DNA of 63,999 nucleotides, counting the filler, from Dirinaria sp. TL-2023a (taxonomy: Eukaryota): NCBI GenBank assembly GCA_051941275.1. It is 6 parts of 6 records of this genome, joined end to end, with 100 filler letters (N's around TTAATTAATTAA, not from the genome) between each part and the next. Parts side by side here need not be neighbours in the genome. Positions count along the whole stretch, not along the records: positions 32,819 to 43,614 come from JAVEBF010000904.1; 5 more parts are not named here. One strand, 5' to 3'. Of the stretch, positions 10,856 to 54,605 are shown piece after piece. Below the pieces are notes generated by a model. The model was not told the DNA's origin. It made no database searches and worked only from the letters and a program-made list of their open reading frames with translations. The position numbers were made by a program, and so were the translations under genes. Each line of letters opens with the position of its first letter. The stretch's first letter is position 1.

Positions 10856-10955
10856 NNNNNNNNNNNNNNNNNNNNNNNNNNNNNNNNNNNNNNNNNNNNT
10901 TAATTAATTAANNNNNNNNNNNNNNNNNNNNNNNNNNNNNNNNNNNNNNNNNNNN
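10856..10955. other. Artificial contig linker
   Basis: N44-TTAATTAATTAA-N44 (stops in all six frames). Confidence 0.99.
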
Positions 10956-21794: not shown

Positions 21795-21894
21795 NNNNNN
21801 NNNNNNNNNNNNNNNNNNNNNNNNNNNNNNNNNNNNNNTTAATTAATTAANNNNNNNNNNNNNNNNNNNNNNNNNNNNNNNNNNNNNNNNNNNN
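21795..21894. other. Artificial contig linker
   Basis: N44-TTAATTAATTAA-N44. Confidence 0.99.
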
Positions 21895-29030: not shown

Positions 29031-29607
29031 GATTGCTGATGTGGACAGTGGAAACGGTGAGAAAGCGTGTACAAGACGTAAAGGCGAAGTTTTATTTCCT
29101 GCTTTGGTTAGATCGGATTTCAGCCTTACTATCGCATCTGGTGTGCGGGGTGCAGTAAGGTACGGAGTACAGTAGAATTACACACAGGATCCATGAATGC
29201 CTGAGGTCATGTTCATCTGATTGGATATTGTTGTTCATCACAAGTGCTTTTGCTAGCCGCGGGGTCAGATTAGGCGCTACCCCACGGTTATCTGCCAAGA
29301 GTTCAGCCTTGCTGCTCACCAACGTCAACCTATGCTCCCAAGTATCGAGTAGCCATCCTGGAACGATGTTCTACCTTTGCGACCGCATATGAGTCAGTTC
29401 TAAGTATCTGGTGTCCAAGTGGTCGATGGGGACATCAACGCATATGGCTTCCGCTAGTCTCTACCATTCCCTGGATGGATGACGAGGCGTTGGAGCTCAG
29501 CCCCCTTATGGACGGTGCTAAGCCTTGCCGAAGACCTCTGAATGGTTTCAACTCTTTTCTTTGAAATGTTCGTCAAGGTAGAGAGCTGAGAAGCCTAATT
29601 GCTACCA

Positions 29608-31851
29608 ATGTCCTTCGGGTTCTCCATCAGCGACGCCATCGTTCTCACACAGATAGCCTTGCGTACCGTCCAAAATTCTCGGAACGCTTGCGGAGCCCAC
29701 GATGCGCTCACCCACGAAACTTCGGGCTTGCTTCTCGTGCTAAGACGTCTCAAGGATGAGACCGCCAAAGCGGAAAGCCCGATCAATCGACCGGCGGATT
29801 CTTGTCAGGAGGAATTGCAGTCCCTCGTCATCGGCTGCAAGAAAACATTGACGACGCTGGAGAACATCTTGGTCAAATACAACTCTTTGAGTGAGGAACA
29901 AAGAAGTGGTCGCAAGCTATGGCAGCGAATACGGTTCGGTAATGGAGAGATGCAAGATCTGGCAGACCTCAGAGGGACATTGGTCTATTACACCTCGGCT
30001 ATCTCGCTTTTTCTCAATGTGGTCTCTATGGGATCTGTTGGAAGAGTCGAAAAACAGATGAACGAAGCCGGTGGAGATCTACGAGACATTCGAGTCGCTG
30101 TGAATGGCATTACTGCCCACCTACTGGCTAGAAATAACCGTGACGGCTCAGTGTTAACGACATATGCGGACGACGACAAGGCTGTGTGGAAGGAGTTGAG
30201 GCGGGAGCTTGTAAAAGACGGTTTTTCGAGTTCCACGGTTCGCCAATACAAAGGACTCATCAAGGCTTACATCACTGAATTGGGTAGCCGAGGGGTTTTG
30301 GACGAACAGGACGTCTCTAGGTTAGATGAGGAAAACGCGAAGTATGAACCTGAGCCCGGTGGCGATCCTTCGTCAAAGTCTCTTGTAGATGCAACTCCGA
30401 GTCAAGAGGAGGTTACAGAAAGCACACATGTGAAAGAACAGGATCGTCCTGACGAGGAGCTAGTGAGGGCCGCTGAGGACCTGACACTTCAACCTGCATC
30501 CGAGCGAAAGGAGGAAGCTAGAGAAACTGCGCCGACCTCTGATAATCAAAAGACTGACCTCGCTTCCTCCGATGATCAAAAGATTAACTTCTCTTCCTCT
30601 AATGATCAAGAAACTGACCTCGCTTCCTCTGATGCTGTCTTAGCACAGAGTGTCGAGCTTGACTGTGGCCATCGAATCAGCCATGCACGCCTCCGGCAAC
30701 TCTTCGAGGTGTCTGTCAATGATGCTCGTTACATGCCGCCAAGATGCTGCGAAAATGGTCACATCCATCCTGACCAAGTTGGGAGTCTCTTCGACATTCG
30801 GTTCAAAGTCATGTGGAACCAGAAACTTCAAGAGAGTCTCGCGAATTCAAAAAATTCTGATCAAATGTTTGAAGAGGTGCTCGGAGAAGGCTCTTATACG
30901 CTTGAACATCCTTGCCGAATCTTCTTCAAAGATCTAATTGAGTATTTCAGAGCGAAGCTTCTAATTCTAGTCCAGGATTCAACTGATAAACACGTTCTCT
31001 GCGGTCGTGTTTTCTGCGCGCGGGGTTGTCAAGAGGCTTTAGCAGTGCCATCGGATCTCCATAAAGACCTCTTCAAGGTCCATGCCCTTACAACAAGTGC
31101 TTATTTAATCTTTGAACGAATGCTCCAGAACAGGTACCAACCTCCACTTGCGATATCAAATGGTATAGAAAATATTGTACGTGCCGTTCAGACTCGCCAA
31201 ACTGTGATACACAGATCGGAAATTGTGGACATCCTTTTCAGCATCAACGACTGGGTCCTCGACTTTGAAGCTAATTGCGTAGAGAGTTTTTTCAAATTGC
31301 AGCACTGGATGGACATTGCAAGCCTAGAGTGGTCAGCAAACAACGAATGCAAACAGATGGTTGAACCTCGTAATACTGGACGGTCAACCAGGCCAAAGCG
31401 GAAATCTAATCCATCTCACGGGCTTAAGAATCATCCTTTCAACAACCTACTTGCGCAGATTTGGGTACAGAATCATGACGAGGATTTGATAACCTTCATC
31501 GCAAGATTCCGTGCCGCTCAGACAATATTGTATGATCGTTACAAATGTTTAACGCAAATACTTCAGTTCAAGCTTTTGGAAAAATACTATCACGACGTGA
31601 TGTTGCCAAGATGTGAGGATTTCATCCTCAATGCACCCAACTGTCACATGATGAGAAATCAAAAGTATACAGCATTGCGCGCATGGGTCGTGGAAGACTA
31701 TCTATGGGAATTGAACTACGTCCGACTGGGTGGAGATGGGACCCTTCGAAGGCGAGTGAGAGAACGAGGTCAAGAAGCTCGAGAAACGCTGGGGAGGCTG
31801 GACGATGTGGCGCGAAAGAACAACGACACTGGTGAAGAACCTACTGTCTAG
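29608..31851 (+). CDS. Protein with fungal STAND N-terminal (HeLo-like/SesA-type) domain, degenerate RING/IBR-like segment and C-terminal BAG-like domain
   Basis: MSFGFSISD...LQSLVIGCKKTLTTLENILVKY...KLWQRIRFG...DDKAVWKELRRELVKDGF; then LDCGHRI...LFEVSVNDARYMPPRCC; C-terminal LPRCEDFI..AP...YTAL...LNYVRLGGDGTLRRRVR...RETLGRLD. Confidence 0.8.
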   Translation: MSFGFSISDAIVLTQIALRTVQNSRNACGAHDALTHETSGLLLVLRRLKDETAKAESPINRPADSCQEELQSLVIGCKKTLTTLENILVKYNSLSEEQRSGRKLWQRIRFGNGEMQDLADLRGTLVYYTSAISLFLNVVSMGSVGRVEKQMNEAGGDLRDIRVAVNGITAHLLARNNRDGSVLTTYADDDKAVWKELRRELVKDGFSSSTVRQYKGLIKAYITELGSRGVLDEQDVSRLDEENAKYEPEPGGDPSSKSLVDATPSQEEVTESTHVKEQDRPDEELVRAAEDLTLQPASERKEEARETAPTSDNQKTDLASSDDQKINFSSSNDQETDLASSDAVLAQSVELDCGHRISHARLRQLFEVSVNDARYMPPRCCENGHIHPDQVGSLFDIRFKVMWNQKLQESLANSKNSDQMFEEVLGEGSYTLEHPCRIFFKDLIEYFRAKLLILVQDSTDKHVLCGRVFCARGCQEALAVPSDLHKDLFKVHALTTSAYLIFERMLQNRYQPPLAISNGIENIVRAVQTRQTVIHRSEIVDILFSINDWVLDFEANCVESFFKLQHWMDIASLEWSANNECKQMVEPRNTGRSTRPKRKSNPSHGLKNHPFNNLLAQIWVQNHDEDLITFIARFRAAQTILYDRYKCLTQILQFKLLEKYYHDVMLPRCEDFILNAPNCHMMRNQKYTALRAWVVEDYLWELNYVRLGGDGTLRRRVRERGQEARETLGRLDDVARKNNDTGEEPTV
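30538..30633 (+). repeat. 30-bp coding tandem repeat, about 3 copies
   Basis: Encodes SDNQKTDLAS-SDDQKINFSS-SNDQETDLAS-SD. Confidence 0.8.
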
Positions 31852-32718: not shown

Positions 32719-32818
32719 NNNNNNNNNNNNNNNNNNNNNNNNNNNNNNNNNNNNNNNNNNNNTTAATTAATTAANNNNNNNNNNNNNNNNNNNNNNNNNN
32801 NNNNNNNNNNNNNNNNNN
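32719..32818. other. Artificial contig linker
   Basis: N44-TTAATTAATTAA-N44. Confidence 0.99.
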
Positions 32819-34300
32819 CGATTCAAACTGCTTGACAAAAATCGCGTAATCTTTTCTGCAATGAAGAGTTTTTCGAGATTGTTAACAAAAATTTTAATTT
32901 TCTCGTTTCGAAAATTGACGATGAAATCTGAATTCGTGTATCGAAGTGTTTGAAATGAAAACTAAATGTTTTTGAACGAAAATTATAGAGTGAGTTTAAA
33001 AGAGATTTGCTCGCTGCGTTTTTTGTACGTTTAACGTTGACATATGTCAACTTCTGTAAACTTATTTACTGCACGTTGTCAGTGTTAAGAAGATAAGATA
33101 ATCTTTGAAAAGAAGATCATATTTATGATAAAAAGCAACAAGTCAGAGCTGAAACAATAGACTGCTATTAGTTCAACGAAATTTCTTGCTGTTCTTATTA
33201 TTATATTTGAACGATCTGGAAATCGGTTTCGCAGAGAATCTTTCATGACCTGTTTGTTTGAGTTCATCCCGGATTTTTCATCGTTGTGCATGTCTTCTTG
33301 GCATATTTTAGCCGCTCACGACGTCTCTGAATTATTCCTTGAGTCCCAAGACCCAGGACTTATTTCAAAGTCTTTTAAAGCAAGAAAGATTAATAGACAG
33401 ACAAAGTAATGAATTTCCTCGTTTAATCGTCGTTGTGTCCCAACATACTTCAGATTTTTGACTTCCCAGTCTCCTTTAGTCTCTCTCAAACTCTTGCAGA
33501 ATACCATCTGATAGTCGCTGATTCCGTGGGGTTTGGGGTCTTCGTGCTTGATCTGCTCTTTGTACGTGTTTTTCTTGCTGTGTTTTCTATTTACTTTTCT
33601 CGATCTCTGATGAAAATCATCGAGATTGGTATTGAAATATGAGTTTCAGATATCGATCTATGTTTTTGCTGCTCGATTTTTAAACAGAGTATTAGAGACG
33701 TTTTGAGTACTTCATCATATCGTCCCATTAATCGCATGTTCAGGAAGTCGTTGCGCATTTGAGAGTTTCTGATGCTATACCGCTCGATCTCTCAGAAATT
33801 TTGTTTAGCAGAGTCTTGAGTTTCTCGAATTTACTGTGTTGCATTCTTCGCTCAGTTTTTTTGATCATTGATCGATTTTTTGTCGAAATCATGGAGAATC
33901 GATATCGATCTATACTCTTCTTCTCATCTTCTAAGAGAATATCAGAGACTTTTTGAGTACTTCATCATAGCGTCTCATTAACCGCAAGTTTAGAAAGTCG
34001 TTGTGCACTTGGAAGTTTCTGATGCTATACTGCGCGATCTCCCAGAAAATTTGTTTAGCAGAGTCTCGAATTTCTCATACTCACTTTTCTCTTCTCATGA
34101 AGGCTAAAACATAGGTTGCAAATGCTTACCAGTCTCTCGTTGAAAGGGTGACAATAGGTCAGTACAAGTTTTTGATCACTACTTCTTCATCAAAAGCTTT
34201 CAGTATTAGTTGAAGAAGGTTAATTATAGAGCTCAAAGCGGCTGATATCAATCCATACTTATAAACTTGATCGAAAACTTGAATTAAAGATGCTCGTGAA
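32819..34300. repeat. AT-rich, CC/GG-poor RIP-like degenerate region containing a ~250-bp tandem duplication
   Basis: The ttttgagtacttcatcat...tttgtttagcagagtct block occurs at 33701 and 33951. The copies differ mostly by C/T and G/A transitions. Confidence 0.75.
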
Positions 34301-34353: not shown

Positions 34354-35618
34354 TCATGTGCAGGCGACCGCACATCCTGTAGGTGCTGCTTCATTTGTAC
34401 ACCCTGCAGGTACGTCGCAGGTCGACGTTGGAGCAGGAGCGGCGGTCGAGCAAGCAAAGGTTGTGGTGGCTGGTAGAGTAGTCCAACCACAAACCGCACC
34501 CGTCGTCTGCGTCACATATTTCAAAGTCGAGTCCCCACACTCGCACCAACCTGTACTGTCTGCGATCGCTGCACACGTGTTTTGCGGATCCGCAACATGC
34601 TCGCACGATACCGTTGCCGAAGTGCCAGAAGATGACGTAGTGGTAGGAGTTGCCCCGGTGGCGGAAGCCCGATCAAGGGACTTCCCGCTCCAGGTGGACA
34701 GAAAGTCGATACATCCTTGGTAGTGGAGGCTTGCGTATGACGTGAAATAGGATTTCACGTCCGCATTACCTACGCTTGAGAGTTGATCACCGATGTCGTT
34801 CACTGTACCAGACATAAGGGCATCTTTATTGTCCGACAGATACTTCTGCACGGCAGGTCCAAAGAAATTGAAGAACGTAGCGCCGTCACCCGAGCTAGGT
34901 CCACCTTTACCCGTAAGGTTGCCGGTGAAGACTTGCTTCTTGAAAGAATTGAGGGCATTGGGAATGCCTTGCAAGTTTTTAAGATTGGTCACTGCGCTTG
35001 CAATCGCACTGTTTTCTGGACCCTTGGTAAAGACAGCGCTCGTCGCTGAAGCCCATACGCCGCTGGGAATGCTAGCTGGGCGAGAAGATTTAAAAAATTC
35101 GCCAATCACTTGTAGTTCGAAGATATGGTCCACGTTCCAGGGATTTGGGCCCCTTATCTGGTTCGGATCACTGGGCTTTGGAATCGGCGTATTCTCAGGA
35201 CCCGTAGAAGTAAAGGCGGTGAATGACGCAGCTGCGTCCGAGGCTGCGGTGTCAACTTGGAACCAAGTTGCGGTAGGCTGATTGGTGTAGACAGCCCGAG
35301 CAGACACAGCTGTGTCATCACGTAAGTCACTTGCACGTACGAATATAGAGAGGTATCGTCCTTACCACTTCTTAGTGCATCCGTGCCATCAGCAAGAATC
35401 TGCGCCGAATCTTCATCTTCAGGTTCAATTCCCGATGGGTCTTGGGCGCTCTGAGGGCCTGGATCTTGTCTTCGGAAATTCTTAAGATCTATAACATCTA
35501 GGGCCTTAGTGCCGCTGAAGGGTGACGCGTGTACAATAGAAACCTGTGCCAGAGTAGCAAGAGTAAGAAGAAGAGCAAGAAGGCGTCTAGAAAGAGCCAG
35601 ATTGACTTGAGTGACCAT
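34354..35618 (-). CDS. Secreted ~402-aa protein with HNH-like motif and Cys-rich C-terminal module
   Basis: Signal peptide and acidic propeptide. Intron 35310-35365 joins ORFs 35154-35618 and 34354-35307 in frame. VDHIFELQ...NLKNLQGIPNALNSFK motif, Thr/Ser linker, Cys-rich tail. Confidence 0.8.
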
Positions 35619-36868
35619 TTTGCGATATATAATATAGACGAGCCCCCAGTTCAGGGCGAAAGTCTTATTGTGAAGACAAGTGCAAAATGTACAAGCGGGG
35701 TGAAGATGACTTCAAATACTTATCTACATTCAGCTCAAAGAGCTGCGTAAGCTCGAAGGTGATTGAACCTCATTTTGAAACTCTCTCATCTGTTTTGTGG
35801 GTCATATAGCATAGCCGCAGTATCACTGTATCAAGAACATTCGTACTACATCAAGCCAACCGTTCAGGCAGGAGGAATCTCGGCGCAGCAGAGAAGATGG
35901 TGTGATGCCCGAGTCGAAGGAGGTGAGAAATAGCGAGCGTTACCGGCTGAACAAATGCCGAGCAATGAATGGAAACAAGCACGGAACTCCAACGTGCACT
36001 TCTTAATGAAGACGATCTGAAGCAAGCGCTTTAGAGTGATGACATCCTTCGCAGTTGGCTGATTCATTCTCTGCATGATGATCCCGTATTGATATAAGGC
36101 AGCTAGAATAATTGATTGCATGGTAGCCTCGCCTTTCGGATCATTGAAGTGCGCACGAGATATGTGGAAGAAAGGCTGAGCCTCCGCCGCATGACGAAGC
36201 CTGGAGTATCGTTTCGAATACTGATACTCAAATACGATCTTTATCGCGGGACTAAGAGCAACGATAGCATCTTTGTACAACTAATGACAGATAGTATTCG
36301 ATGCAAATTTCTTGATGATTCGTCCGATATACGATGCATTGATTATAGAGCCTCAGGACCGGCGCCTGTCGCATTGAAATCGCTGTCAAAAGTCAGGAGA
36401 AGGCAAGAAAATGTTGTATGGCGCTCGATGCCAATCTAAAATCATGTTTCAACACAAAGCGCCCCCAATACATTGTGGTGTTGGTTGAAGCTGAAGTGAA
36501 AAGTGACGGTCATGCATACCTTAGCGAGATTGCCTCACTTGGGAAGCGAGTTGATTGGATTTTTTGTACCGAGAATAGCAGAAGCCACCCTCCATCTTTA
36601 TGCACGCAGCCAATGACCGTCGGACCTTATGCAGCTGCGCCACATCGGCTTTCATGCGTCAACTTGAAACCGCGTACTCGTATCCATCACACACATTCTT
36701 TTTCGAGCCTCTTCATTCATTTGCGTGTCAGATCTGTAACGACAAATATTCTGTTTGTGCGTCGCGCCGCCAAGGACAGGTTGTCACTGTCATTGCGTTC
36801 TCATAAGCGTCCAGGCAGTTGAGAACCATCGTCTTCAGCACGATTATCAGTCTCAATACCATTACACA

Positions 36869-38855
36869 ATGGCTTCCAGAAAACAAATTGGGTGGACAGT
36901 ACCTGGTTTCGGCTTGCCGTTGAGATGGCCCGAGATGCGCAGTGTTCGATGGCAACCCTTATTTCAGCCTGACGAGAACACGCTGCTGTTGTCTGCGCTG
37001 GACGCGTCAGAAAATCCGTAAGCTTTTGATGAAGACCTTCCTTCCGTTTGGAGAGCAAGAGTAGATTAAACATTGATTATGTGAGCAGTAAATTCTGCTA
37101 TACCGTGCGAGAGCGCACCATGATAGCTCTCATTAACGAGCTGACTGATGCACCGGACTGGCAGCGCAAAGTCTTTGATCCAGAGTACACTTTCAAGTGG
37201 AAAAGCGGATTGGTGATGTCTGGAAGGGATATCACTAGATCAATGGCCGATTGGGTGGGCAGACTCATGAATTACCGCTCCGTACCAGTATGCTAAGGTA
37301 AATTAGTGTGTGGAGGAGGTAAAGTACCATGCACACTCATATCTCACATCTTTAGCCGTTCCTACCATAGACGGTGGTATCTCTAAGTCCGACACACGAG
37401 TCCCCCTTATCGATCATATGGAGCTCCAAAGAGCCATTTCTTCTCTCCCTCGAGGAAAGCGAACAAATGCCAGCAATCGCACAACCACAGACCTGGTAGA
37501 TCCATATTTATTTCCCTTTGCGTTTGAAAAAACGAAAACTCTGAGACGAGGCCAATTGCGGCTGTCTGACTGTATTCAACGTGCTGGAGAAGGCGAGCCA
37601 GTGAGAATGCCGTCTGAAGCAGACTGTACTCAGACAGATCCGGCCAAATATCCAAATGATATGGCGTGGTCGCGACTCTTTCAATATCTTCCTTTTAATG
37701 TTGAGTTTTCTAGCAAGGGTGAAGGGACTTGCCGGTAAATCTGGCACCAAAGAGATAATGCTCTCGCTGATCACGCACCACAGTATAACAAGCTACATCA
37801 ATGACGTAAACCCGGCATCATATCTGTCTTTCTACAGTATTCTGGAAAAGCTCATTGATACGACTATTCCGATGTTCAACGAAACTTTAATCGAGCTGAA
37901 GGCGCCTGGGTACCAAGATCAGCGGTTTCACGTCGCTGAGCTCGGGCGAGAGCCCATGATCGTGAAGGAGCCAGGCGCATTCCGTCCCCCAGAACAACGC
38001 ACACCGGTACGGGATTTTGTCGACTCAGAAGGTCACTACAGAGACTGGTTATTTATCAACCTGAAAAAAGAGTTCTGGAATGTAGGGTTGCAATTTGTCC
38101 TCAGAGTCACCGAAGTGAAACTCGACCCCGAGAAGACAAAGTACGAGGGCGAGGAGTGGCATATCGAAGGACAAGAGGTAAAATATCCTCCTTTTGTATC
38201 CCCCGCCCTTCTTTTCCGTAACCAGTGCAGATGATATTGACGCAAGGTCTTCGAAACGTAGAATGAGCGCATCTGCGCCACAGCAATCTATATCTCCTCT
38301 GTCCGTAACATTCACCCCGCACCAACACTCGCGTTCCGTCGCCGCGTCCACGTCGAAGAAGCCATGCTTGCTAAAGACTACATCCAGTCCCCGCCATGGG
38401 CACCCGATCTTTATGGAGCCCGCGACGGCGACCCCGTCATCCAGCACATGGGCGACATTGTGCTGCGCGAACGCCGACTTGTAACATATCCCAACACCTT
38501 CCAGACACGCCTCATGCCCTTCGAACTAGACGACAAAGCAAAGCCCGGCTACTTCCAATACATGGTATTGCACTTGATCGATCCTAACCGCCGCGCTATG
38601 AGTTCAGCCATGGTACCTGTGCAGCGGCGGGATTGGTGGGCTTGGGAGTTGAGGCGGTCGTGCGCCCCACTTTGGCGGTTACCGCTGGAGATCTTTGAAC
38701 GCATTGTAGATATGGTCGACGGGTACCCGTTGTCTGTCGAGCAAGGGTATGAGATGAGAAGGGAGTTTAAGGAGGAGCGAGAGCGATTTCGTGAGAAGCA
38801 TACACAGGCGATGATGGATTATCTGACGTGGGATCTCGATTGGAATGATGAGTAA
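36869..38855 (+). CDS. DUF4246 family protein (2OG-Fe(II) oxygenase-like fold), multi-exon
   Basis: PGFGLPL, TVRERTMIALINELTDAPDWQRKVFD, DLVDPYLFPF, WSRLFQYLP, ITSYINDVNP, YEGEEWHIEG, PFELDDKAKPG, LIDPNRR...VPVQRRDWW. Confidence 0.88.
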
Positions 38856-43101: not shown

Positions 43102-43614
43102 TCAGAACTTAATCCCACACCGCTGCAAACAAGCCTTCGGCCCATCCGAAAAAGACTTCGGAATCGCAGCATCAAACTGCCGAATATTGGTTCCATCAAG
43201 CTGATCCGGAAACCCCAAATCCGCATCGACAACATCCGGGTCCAAAGCGAAGAAATTCTTCCCGATCGTGCTCAGCCCGGGATCCTCATTACTGAACGCC
43301 GCAAGAAACACCGCCGGCTCGCAATTATCGTTGAACTCGTAATGGATGCTGCCCTGCGGGAACAGCGCGCCCTGGTACAGGGACAGGGTGGTGCTGAACT
43401 GGGTCGTCAGGCCGTTTTCGAGGATGAAACCCGTTTTCACATTGGCGCCGTGGGCCAGCGTAAGGAATTCCGTGGCGCGCGGGTGGATGTGCGGTTTGTT
43501 CATGCCGCAGGGGTTCATGAAGCCGGCGGACATGGCGACGCCGAGGTCGATGAGCGCGGGGAAGGTCTTGCGGTTCGCGAGGTCGCCCTGCCCGCCTACC
43601 CCTTTGCCGCCACC
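43102..43614 (-). CDS. Spherulin/germin-like cupin, 3' part only
   Basis: Germin box PCGMNKPHIHPRATEF and FPQGSIHYEFN...AFSNEDPG. Confidence 0.9.
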   Translation of the reverse strand, partial: GGGKGVGGQGDLANRKTFPALIDLGVAMSAGFMNPCGMNKPHIHPRATEFLTLAHGANVKTGFILENGLTTQFSTTLSLYQGALFPQGSIHYEFNDNCEPAVFLAAFSNEDPGLSTIGKNFFALDPDVVDADLGFPDQLDGTNIRQFDAAIPKSFSDGPKACLQRCGIKF

Positions 43615-43714
43615 NNNNNNNNNNNNNNNNNNNNNNNNNNNNNNNNNNNNNNNNNNNNTTAATTAATTAANNNNNNNNNNNNNNNNNNNNNNNNNNNNNN
43701 NNNNNNNNNNNNNN
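43615..43714. other. Artificial contig linker
   Basis: N44-TTAATTAATTAA-N44. Confidence 0.99.
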
Positions 43715-54505: not shown

Positions 54506-54605
54506 NNNNNNNNNNNNNNNNNNNNNNNNNNNNNNNNNNNNNNNNNNNNTTAATTAATTAANNNNNNNNNNNNNNNNNNNNNNNNNNNNNNNNNNNNNNN
54601 NNNNN
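54506..54605. other. Artificial contig linker
   Basis: N44-TTAATTAATTAA-N44. Confidence 0.99.

What the first reader, a model, noticed from the sequence alone, without database searches (positions are those of the whole stretch)
34354..35618. Secreted HNH-like (His-Me finger) putative nuclease effector with Cys-rich tail
Seen: after removing a 56-nt intron, a ~402-aa protein with signal peptide, a dibasic RR site, an acidic propeptide, a core WNVDHIFELQ...TNLKNLQGIPNALNSFK, a Thr/Ser linker and a ~10-Cys C-terminal module. Established: HNH/HNN nucleases have DH...NL...N/H-x-x-K spacing and are common toxin domains. Inference: a processed, exported nuclease-fold toxin or effector with a targeting module, lying next to RIP-like repeat DNA as accessory effectors often do. 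The ORF track splits it in two, so it is easily missed.
Basis: partly seen in the sequence, partly recalled or inferred. Interest (0 to 1): 0.72.

Follow-up and report, generated by a model that had tools for sequence, protein, structure and literature searches.

The report
Lichen-only secreted protein with nuclease-like motif
This is a real two-exon gene of a lichen fungus for a secreted, modular protein found only in lichen-forming fungi, whose conserved core carries the residue pattern of a small class of DNA/RNA-cutting enzymes but matches no known family or solved structure, so nuclease activity is likely but unproven.

Summary
The gene is real. It lies on the minus strand: exon 1 at 35618-35366, a 56-nt GT..AG intron at 35365-35310, exon 2 at 35309-34354, giving 402 aa. 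The intron sits at the same place in 11 of 11 related metagenome loci.

The family is small: 64 of 1.84 billion representatives. Every named member is a Lecanoromycete lichen fungus. It has no Pfam, NCBIfam or PDB sequence match.

D-H, N, N and K are near-invariant in HNH spacing, and language-model neighbours are all HNH-clan. However, profile comparison with Endonuclease_1 does not beat shuffled controls.

Verdict: a plausible new His-Me-finger-like secreted nuclease, about 50% likely. A toxin role is untested. The "RIP-like" flank is not RIP-like. A DUF4246 gene is a conserved head-to-head neighbour.

The parts
35366..35618 (-). Exon 1 (253 nt): start codon, signal peptide, pre-dibasic segment, acidic segment
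   Evidence: tblastn of the exon-1 peptide finds the matching exon in 11 of 11 related loci.
35526..35618 (-). Predicted signal peptide (aa 1-31; hydrophobic core aa 12-24; cleavage after VHA inferred)
   Evidence: Hydropathy. N-termini of homologues are likewise hydrophobic. No dedicated predictor was available.
35469..35525 (-). Segment between leader and dibasic site (aa 32-50), ending in RR; probable kexin-removed propeptide
   Evidence: R50 is in 19 of 19 sequences, mostly [KR]R followed by Q. Cleavage itself is inferred.
35367..35468 (-). Acidic segment aa 51-84 (9 D/E, 1 K/R), ending in the conserved T-x-x-L-R
35310..35365 (-). 56-nt phase-1 intron, GTAAGG...ACACAG
   Evidence: Same position in 11 of 11 loci, with intron sequence unconserved and exon flanks conserved. 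Homologue proteins are contiguous across the junction.
34354..35309 (-). Exon 2 (956 nt including stop codon 34354-34356)
34660..35309 (-). Conserved core domain (about 217 aa; P0001 residues 1-215), confidently modelled, no known family
35110..35139 (-). WNVDHIFELQ: strand ending in the D-H pair (candidate general base His, full-length residue 146)
   Evidence: D 37/38, H 38/39. Strand 56-59 then helix 61-72.
34939..34989 (-). TNLKNLQGIPNALNSFK: N-x8-N-x2-K (candidate hairpin Asn, metal-ligand Asn, phosphate-contact Lys; full-length N196, N205, K208)
   Evidence: N 54/55, N 55/56, K 55/56. Strand 112-115 then helix 116-131. This is the only stretch hhalign pairs with EndA's NLQ...N..R, and that pairing is not significant.
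34606..34659 (-). Thr/Ser-rich linker (probable O-glycosylated spacer)
   Evidence: Composition. pLDDT below 50. Glycosylation is inferred.
34450..34605 (-). Cys-rich module A (6 Cys: C-x-H-x-A-D-P...C-A-A-I-A...G-W-C-x-C...C-x-W-T-T...F-x-C)
   Evidence: Also at the C-terminus of GDSL lipase-like proteins P0060-P0062. tblastn of P0060 hits 34611-34450.
34357..34419 (-). Cys-rich module B (4 Cys: C-x-V-P-x-G-C...G-C-A-x-x-C-T), C-terminal end
   Evidence: Regex found it in 19 of 112 family proteins. In relatives other modules take its place.
36740..38855 (+). Divergently transcribed neighbour: multi-exon DUF4246 gene (approximate limits)
   Evidence: Pfam DUF4246_N and DUF4246. Same head-to-head arrangement in 9 of 9 related loci that have upstream flank.
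32820..34300 (.). AT-rich flank (36% GC) with a 2-copy 160-nt direct repeat; not RIP-like

Best explanation
The gene encodes a member of a small family that, among named sequences, is found only in lichen-forming fungi of the class Lecanoromycetes. It is a secreted, modular protein.

Likely route (inferred steps marked):
1. The leader sends it into the secretory pathway (inferred).
2. A kexin-type protease cuts after the conserved [KR]R (inferred).
3. The mature protein has three parts: (a) a ~215-residue, almost Cys-free, mainly helical core whose conserved polar site looks like a His-Me finger (HNH-type) metal-dependent nuclease; (b) a Thr/Ser linker; (c) a 10-Cys C-terminal module that probably tethers the enzyme to a wall, matrix or target surface.

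In the proposed site, His146 at the end of a strand is the general base, Asp145 and Asn205 hold the divalent metal, Asn196 braces the hairpin and Lys208 contacts the phosphate.

The most likely job is cutting extracellular nucleic acid in the thallus matrix, either to scavenge phosphate or nucleotides or to act against surrounding microbes.

Shown here: gene structure, conservation pattern, lineage restriction, modularity and a confident model.
Inferred: secretion, processing, fold class, catalysis and role.
For: Gene and splice.

Family size and range:
- 60 hits.
- 64 of 1,835,955,588 representatives at E<=1e-3.
- 53 hits with a profile, no new taxa.
- All 19 named source organisms are lichen fungi. 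I checked three lineages in the taxonomy.

Catalytic-type signature:
- D59 37/38, H60 38/39, N110 54/55, N119 55/56, K122 55/56; also E63 34/37 and Q65 34/40.
- H60 is invariant in the 39-sequence alignment.
- The most divergent members (P0099, P0104; 22-24% identity) keep D-H, N-L, N and K.

Structure:
- AF2 core pLDDT is above 90, with the order strand 56-59 / helices / strand 112-115 / helix 116-131.

Language-model neighbours among named clusters are all HNH-clan: DUF1524 0.84, GmrSD_C 0.83, AHH 0.82, GmrSD_C/HNH_4 0.79, GH-E 0.79.

Against a 30-sequence Endonuclease_1 profile, the best local hhalign alignment pairs W56/W82, D59/E83, H60/H84, N110/N121 and N119/N130 of E. coli EndA.

Modularity:
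- Module A also ends GDSL lipase-like proteins.
- C-terminal modules differ among relatives and are scattered on the core tree. Module C needs 3 changes, all forced by well-supported branches.
Against: - No Pfam family at E<=10 for the protein, and no nuclease family for any of the 57 members.
- NCBIfam and PADLOC gave nothing relevant.
- No PDB sequence match.
- Foldseek found nothing at E<=1e-3 in PDB or BFVD.
- The hhalign score against Endonuclease_1 (13.0; probability 0.13%, E 0.44) is matched or beaten by 43 of 150 column-shuffled controls and by the reversed alignment at 19.0.
- Atlas scores under 0.9 are leads only, and one clan filling the top ten occurs for a third of shuffled proteins.
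- The closest Atlas clusters (0.93) are bacterial, carry no Pfam family and are auto-named 'Chitin-binding protein'. I cannot explain them.
- The core lacks the Zn-binding Cys/His of classical HNH domains and the eight conserved Cys of EndA.
- I could not see coordinates, so strand pairing and site geometry are unverified.
- There is no expression or activity data.
Confidence: 0.5

Rival explanations
1. The core is a secreted enzyme or ligand-binding domain of a truly new fold. Its conserved D-H / N / N / K / E / Q site acts on something other than nucleic acid, for example a wall or matrix glycan, a phosphoester or a metal. The HNH-like spacing is a coincidence.
For: - Profile similarity to a real His-Me nuclease family is at shuffle level.
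- The nearest Atlas clusters (0.93, 189 and 183 of 256 features) are unnamed-family bacterial proteins auto-labelled 'Chitin-binding protein'.
- The tail module is shared with GDSL esterase/lipase-like proteins, which usually act on wall or surface polymers.
Against: - The exact N-x8-N-x2-K spacing after a strand-terminal D-H is the HNH hallmark (recalled from the HNH literature). It is kept down to 22-24% identity.
- The only structural neighbour covering the whole domain is a His-Me nuclease.
- Every named language-model neighbour is HNH-clan.
Confidence: 0.28
2. One reading: a processed toxin or effector that enters or attacks bacterial, algal or fungal cells. The C-terminal module aims it and the nuclease core kills or reprogrammes the target.
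For: - Lineage-restricted family.
- At least two family members in one named assembly: Heterodermia P0036 and P0052.
- Repeated swapping of C-terminal modules on a constant core, as expected for aiming parts.
- Secretion signals.
Against: - No translocation domain, no immunity-like small gene next to it, and no expression data.
- The flank is not RIP-like, so the accessory-compartment argument falls.
- The conserved neighbour is a DUF4246 gene of unknown function.
- An extracellular matrix nuclease explains the same features without cell entry.
- This reading also needs the nuclease reading to be true first.
Confidence: 0.15
3. A non-catalytic structural or adhesive matrix/wall protein of the lichen thallus. 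The conserved polar residues serve folding or partner binding, and the Cys-rich tail cross-links it.
For: - Thr/Ser linker plus Cys-rich terminus is typical of wall-associated fungal proteins (general knowledge).
- No enzyme family match.
Against: Near-invariant D-H, N, N, K, E and Q over deep divergence is unusual for a purely structural domain. The core itself has no conserved Cys.
Confidence: 0.07

Closest known systems
Endonuclease I family (Vvn / EndA, Pfam PF04231 Endonuclease_1), secreted or periplasmic His-Me finger nucleases
   Same: - Exported.
- [D/E]-H-[V/I] at a strand end; then, after an insertion, N-L-Q-x6-N-x2-[K/R].
- Similar H-to-N distances: 37 and 46 in E. coli EndA against 50 and 59 here.
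- The best hhalign local alignment pairs the catalytic columns.
   Different: - No Pfam match.
- hhalign score at shuffle level.
- None of EndA's eight conserved Cys.
- Eukaryotic and lichen-restricted.
- Extra N-terminal hairpin, long C-terminal helical hairpin, linker and Cys-rich tail.
HNH/EndoVII-clan toxin and restriction domains (GmrSD_C/DUF1524, AHH, GH-E; Tox-DHNNK of Zhang et al. 2012, PMC3482391)
   Same: - D-H ... N ... N ... K signature. Passages of PMC3482391 seen list Tox-DHNNK as HNH/EndoVII fold with 'DH, N, N, N, K', present in bacteria, archaea, ascomycetes and basidiomycetes.
- All named Atlas neighbours belong to this clan.
   Different: - Those domains are short (about 50-140 aa), usually C-terminal toxin tips in bacteria paired with immunity genes.
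- Here the candidate finger is split by a ~45-residue helical insertion inside a 215-aa domain at the N-terminal end of a eukaryotic secreted protein.
- No profile match. No Tox-DHNNK model or sequences were available to test.
Kexin-processed secreted fungal proproteins with a Thr/Ser linker and a Cys-rich binding module (as in fungal enzymes carrying carbohydrate-binding modules)
   Same: - Leader, conserved [KR]R site, linker and a terminal Cys- and aromatic-rich module.
- The module is shared with unrelated catalytic domains, here GDSL lipase-like.
   Different: The tail matches no Pfam module. Its ligand is unknown, and AF2 could not model it (pLDDT below 50).

Membership tests
His-Me finger (HNH/EndoVII) superfamily | Beta-beta-alpha-metal topology: a strand ending in the catalytic His, a second antiparallel strand, then a helix carrying the metal-ligand Asn/His | tested here: inconclusive
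His-Me finger (HNH/EndoVII) superfamily | Invariant His preceded by an acidic residue, plus Asn ... Asn/His-x-x-Lys in canonical spacing (spacing recalled from the HNH literature) | tested here: met
   D59 37/38, H60 38/39, N110 54/55, N119 55/56, K122 55/56. N110 to N119 is 9 residues and N119 to K122 is 3.
His-Me finger (HNH/EndoVII) superfamily | Significant sequence or profile match to a curated HNH-clan family | tested here: not met
   0 Pfam families for P0001 at E<=10. None of the 20 families hit by any of the 57 members is a nuclease family. NCBIfam and PADLOC gave none.
His-Me finger (HNH/EndoVII) superfamily | Divalent-metal-dependent nuclease activity | not testable with these tools
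   Needs a recombinant protein assay.
Endonuclease_1 (PF04231) | Match to the family profile | tested here: not met
   No hmmscan hit. hhalign against an 18-sequence and a 30-sequence family alignment gave probability 0.12-0.13% and E 0.44-0.47. 43 of 150 shuffled controls score as high.
Endonuclease_1 (PF04231) | Conserved disulfide-forming cysteines | tested here: not met
   Eight Cys are invariant in the EndA alignment. The core here has one non-conserved Cys.
Endonuclease_1 (PF04231) | Shared overall fold | tested here: inconclusive
Tox-DHNNK (Zhang et al. 2012) | DH, N, N, N, K conserved residues on an HNH fold | not testable with these tools
   D, H, N, N and K are conserved here. No model or member sequences of Tox-DHNNK were available.
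Kexin-processed secreted proprotein | N-terminal signal peptide and a conserved dibasic site | tested here: met
   Hydrophobic core at aa 12-24. R50 in 19 of 19, mostly [KR]R-Q. Actual cleavage is not testable here.
RIP-affected repeat DNA (flank 32820-34300) | TpA/ApT high and (CpA+TpG)/(ApC+GpT) low (usual thresholds about 0.89 and 1.03, recalled) | tested here: not met
   0.67 and 1.22, like the whole window at 0.70 and 1.29.

The most novel reading that the evidence does not exclude
Lichen-forming fungi have evolved their own branch of His-Me finger nucleases on an otherwise unseen ~215-residue scaffold. They deploy it as a family of secreted, surface-aimed enzymes with interchangeable C-terminal aiming modules, to police the bacteria or algae living in the thallus. 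The gene is co-regulated from a shared bidirectional promoter with a conserved DUF4246 partner, which could be a maturation or self-protection factor.
Probability: 0.15. Interest if true: 0.8.

Novelty: new variant of a known kind. Interest (0 to 1): 0.55.

Why it matters
Very few proteins are known that lichen fungi use to manage their algal partners and resident microbes. This family has four features that make it a concrete candidate for bench testing:
- It is lineage-restricted and secreted.
- Its aiming modules have been swapped repeatedly.
- It carries a plausible nuclease site.
- It has a confidently predicted fold with no solved counterpart.

If the core is a nuclease, it extends the His-Me finger class to a new eukaryotic scaffold and gives lichen biology an extracellular nuclease to study in matrix turnover, phosphate scavenging or antagonism. 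If it is not a nuclease, the fold and its conserved polar site are new in themselves.

The conserved head-to-head pairing with DUF4246 gives that uncharacterised fungal family a first functional lead. No paper in the searched library mentions DUF4246.

Tried and rejected
- **Whole genome:** none is held for this window.
- **Earlier findings of this scan:** nothing near, by sequence or by words.
- **RNA evidence for splicing:** no RNA holder was listed, so no reads were laid.
- **Foldseek:** nothing at E<=1e-3 against PDB or BFVD, for the full and the 1-140 model.
- **VIA-wide on the 1-140 model:** only three-helix look-alikes. Endonuclease I is not among the 50 rows shown.
- **hhalign against E. 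coli EndA:** tried alone, with an 18-sequence alignment and with a 30-sequence alignment. None was significant. Shuffle control: 43 of 150 at or above the real score.
- **GmrSD_C comparison:** only one marginal E. coli sequence was obtainable, so no profile was built.
- **The search for related loci with alignment A3 in genome contigs:** The single scan was later spent on EndA to obtain genome handles.
- **Other C-terminal modules (P0063, P0014) against PDB sequences:** only low-complexity noise.
- **DUF4246 exon translations against PDB sequences:** none.
- **Tox-DHNNK details:** main-text passages only.
- **Bacterial promoter/terminator scan of the intergenic region:** not applicable to a fungus; ignored.
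- **Rejected, pseudogene or chance ORF:** excluded by 60 homologues and the intact frame.
- **Rejected, classical Zn-finger HNH:** the core has no Cys/His cluster.
Full report
**Observation**

The finding lies on the minus strand. Stop-to-stop ORFs split it into 34354..35361 and 35154..35711 in different frames. Removing 35365-35310 (56 nt, GTAAGG...ACACAG) joins a 253-nt exon 1 (35618-35366) to a 956-nt exon 2 (35309-34354) and gives one open frame of 402 aa.

The protein has these parts:
- A hydrophobic leader. Residues 12-24 have a 9-residue hydropathy mean of up to 2.86.
- RR at residues 49-50.
- An acidic stretch, residues 51-84, with 9 D/E against 1 K/R.
- A core of about 215 residues with a single Cys.
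- A Thr/Ser-rich linker.
- A tail with 10 Cys.

The splice is supported in three ways:
- The junction reads ...ALRS-A-VSARAVY. Homologue proteins P0007, P0008 and P0012 read ...GPLRSAVSAR... straight across it.
- In 11 of 11 related metagenome loci, the exon-1 and exon-2 matches are separated by 49-66 nt at the same spot, in some with a frame change.
- Read by eye, those gaps begin GTAAG, GTAGG or GTGAG, hold a CTAAC/CTGAC-like box and end in AG. The flanking exon sequence is conserved and the gap sequence is not.

No RNA run was listed for the stretch, so there is no direct transcript evidence.

**What the family is**

- A word-indexed search found 60 proteins at E<=1e-3, the best at 3e-156 and 77% identity from Physcia stellaris.
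- An exhaustive phmmer scan of 1.84 billion representatives with the core found only 64 (45 at E<=1e-10).
- A 16-sequence profile found 53 and no new kinds.

Every hit that carries a name comes from a lichen fungus:
- Physcia, Heterodermia, Protoblastenia, Teloschistes, Lepraria, Loxospora, Loekoesia, Usnea, Pyrenodesmia, Lasallia, Bachmanniomyces and Cornicularia.
- Squamulea, cf. Caloplaca, Psora, Varicellaria and Kuettlingeria.

The three lineages I looked up are all Lecanoromycetes. That the others are Lecanoromycetes is my recollection. Unnamed hits come from metagenome and run assemblies whose taxa I do not know.

Only one copy lies in this window. One named assembly (Heterodermia) has two members.

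**No known family by sequence or structure**

- Pfam gives 0 families for the protein at E<=10. None of the 20 weak families seen over all 57 aligned members is a nuclease family.
- NCBIfam and PADLOC give nothing relevant.
- PDB sequences give no match to the protein. The family profile gives only two hits near E of 1.
- AlphaFold2 with a 57-sequence alignment models residues 1-210 of exon 2 at pLDDT above 90 (mean 80.3 because the linker and tail are below 50). A second model of residues 1-140 reaches 91.1.
- Foldseek finds nothing at E<=1e-3 in PDB or BFVD.

**Evidence for a His-Me finger (HNH-like) site**

| Position | Conservation |
|---|---|
| D59 | 37/38 |
| H60 | 38/39 |
| N110 | 54/55 |
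| N119 | 55/56 |
| K122 | 55/56 |
| E63 | 34/37 |
| Q65 | 34/40 |

- The exceptions are single, probably mispredicted or decayed sequences (P0035, P0070, P0064).
- H60 is the only invariant column in a 39-sequence alignment.
- The most divergent members (P0099 from Bachmanniomyces, P0104 from Squamulea; 22-24% identity) keep D-H, N-L, N and K.
- The spacing N-x8-N-x2-K is that of HNH motifs. This is my recollection of the HNH consensus.
- The predicted order of elements is strand 56-59, His60, helices 61-72, 81-92 and 96-105, strand 112-115, then helix 116-131 with N119 in its first turn. A beta-beta-alpha-metal finger with a helical insertion between its strands would look like this.
- In the ESM Atlas the named nearest clusters are all HNH-clan: DUF1524 0.84, GmrSD_C 0.83, AHH 0.82, GmrSD_C/HNH_4 0.79 and GH-E 0.79.
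- Against a 30-sequence Endonuclease_1 alignment drawn from 301 Pseudomonadota genomes, hhalign's best local alignment pairs W56/W82, D59/E83, H60/H84, N110/N121 and N119/N130 of E. coli EndA. The strings are TNLKNLQGIPNALNSFK against SDMHNLQPSVGEVNGDR.

**Evidence against, told in full**

- The hhalign result is not significant: probability 0.13%, E 0.44, score 13.0. In my control, 43 of 150 column-shuffled versions scored as high, and the reversed alignment scored 19.0.
- Atlas scores under 0.9 are leads only.
- The closest Atlas clusters (0.93; 189 and 183 of 256 features) are bacterial proteins of no Pfam family, auto-named 'Chitin-binding protein'. I could not retrieve or explain them.
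- The core has neither the Zn-binding residues of classical HNH domains nor EndA's eight invariant Cys.
- I could not see model coordinates, so strand pairing and site geometry remain unchecked.

The three weak leads are the motif, the language-model neighbours and the best structural neighbour. I put a His-Me-type nuclease core at about 50%. It cannot be filed as a member of any curated family.

**Processing**

- R50 is present in 19 of 19 aligned N-termini. It is usually preceded by K or R and followed by Q. This is the pattern of a kexin site (general knowledge of fungal secretion).
- The acidic stretch lies after this site, not before it. It would stay on the mature protein unless a second cut is made at the conserved T-x-P-L-R just before the core (T79 and R83 at 90% or more).
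- Whether the acidic stretch shields the active site is an open idea. The complex prediction meant to probe it never ran.

**Modularity**

- The tail has two parts. Module A (6 Cys) also ends three GDSL lipase-like proteins: P0060-P0062. Pfam GDSL is above cut-off for P0062 and weak for P0060. P0060's tail maps to 34611-34450.
- By regex over 112 family proteins, module B follows in 19, a different module D in 3, module E in 3 and module C in 5. Many gene models are truncated.
- I built a core tree of 35 sequences; 22 of 57 with fewer than 170 core residues were left out. Module C needs 3 changes, all forced by well-supported branches. The labels as a whole need 13 changes against a minimum of 6.
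- C-terminal modules have therefore been swapped repeatedly on a constant core.
- None of these modules has a Pfam or PDB sequence match.

**Surroundings**

- The AT-rich flank (32820-34300, 36% GC) has TpA/ApT 0.67 and (CpA+TpG)/(ApC+GpT) 1.22. The whole window gives 0.70 and 1.29. It is not RIP-like by the usual indices (thresholds recalled).
- That flank holds one 2-copy 160-nt direct repeat at 83% identity.
- On the other side, about 1.2 kb from the start codon and on the opposite strand, lies a multi-exon DUF4246 gene.
- The same head-to-head pair occurs in 9 of 9 related loci that have at least 3.2 kb of upstream flank. These cover all five distinct sequence types, at 48-66% identity to this protein. 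The two remaining loci have no flank to judge.
- This may be retained ancestral synteny or a shared promoter. DUF4246 has no PDB sequence match and no mention in the searched paper library.

**Literature**

- Passages of Zhang et al. 2012 (PMC3482391) list a Tox-DHNNK clade of the HNH/EndoVII fold with conserved 'DH, N, N, N, K', reported from bacteria, archaea, ascomycetes and basidiomycetes. No model or sequences were available to test kinship.
- Full-text searches returned no paper whose title or abstract describes this family. The searches were lichen-forming + secretome + effector + nuclease, lichen + HNH + secreted and Lecanoromycetes + secretome + lineage-specific. I saw listings and abstract starts only.
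- A 2026 preprint on antimicrobial repertoires of lichen fungi (10.64898/2026.09.03.749242) could bear on the family.

**Verdict**

The HNH-like reading is plausible and remains the best single explanation, but it is unproven. The toxin or effector role is untested. The RIP remark is wrong.

The family is lichen-restricted, with a confident and unmatched fold. It also has shuffled C-terminal modules and a conserved DUF4246 partner gene.

Noticed in passing
window 36740-38855 (+) and loci L005-L013: A DUF4246 gene is a conserved divergent (head-to-head) neighbour of the family. It occurs in 9 of 9 related loci with enough flank, covering five sequence types. No paper in the searched library mentions DUF4246.
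   Followed up: partly
window 10856-10955, 21795-21894, 32719-32818, 43615-43714, 54506-54605: Paired 44-nt runs of N recur about every 10.9 kb. They look like masking or assembly padding rather than biology. One pair lies in the AT-rich flank of this gene.
   Followed up: no
P0003 (Physcia stellaris homologue), residues ~79-103: The public gene model carries an extra ~25-residue insert exactly at the conserved intron position. It probably reads through an in-frame intron.
   Followed up: no
L008/L009 (4234-4423) and L010/L011 (4210-4297): In these relatives the exon-2 match is broken again inside the core, between residues ~71-101 of the query. This suggests an extra intron inside the helical insertion in some lineages.
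   Followed up: no
P0060, P0061, P0062: GDSL lipase-like secreted proteins of lichen fungi end in the same 6-Cys module A as this protein. The module is therefore mobile among secreted enzymes.
   Followed up: partly
P0063, P0065, P0052, P0078, P0094; P0014, P0015, P0079: Relatives carry other C-terminal modules with no Pfam or PDB sequence match. One is of about 130 aa beginning Y-A-T-G-x-C-S-F-H and ending ...D-C-x-F-P-C. Another ends ...A-W-K-x-C-x-N-Q-G-R-G-G.
   Followed up: partly
ESM Atlas result for P0001 residues 1-215: The nearest clusters (0.93) are ~226-aa bacterial (Pseudomonadota) proteins of no Pfam family, auto-named 'Chitin-binding protein'. No HMMER search recovered a hit named from a bacterium. 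I cannot say whether they are kin.
   Followed up: no
window 29599-31848 (+); 43150-43662 (-): Other neighbours: a 750-aa ORF with a PigL_N domain (E 1.6e-7), and a Cupin_1 protein (E 4.3e-18) interrupted by an N run.
   Followed up: no
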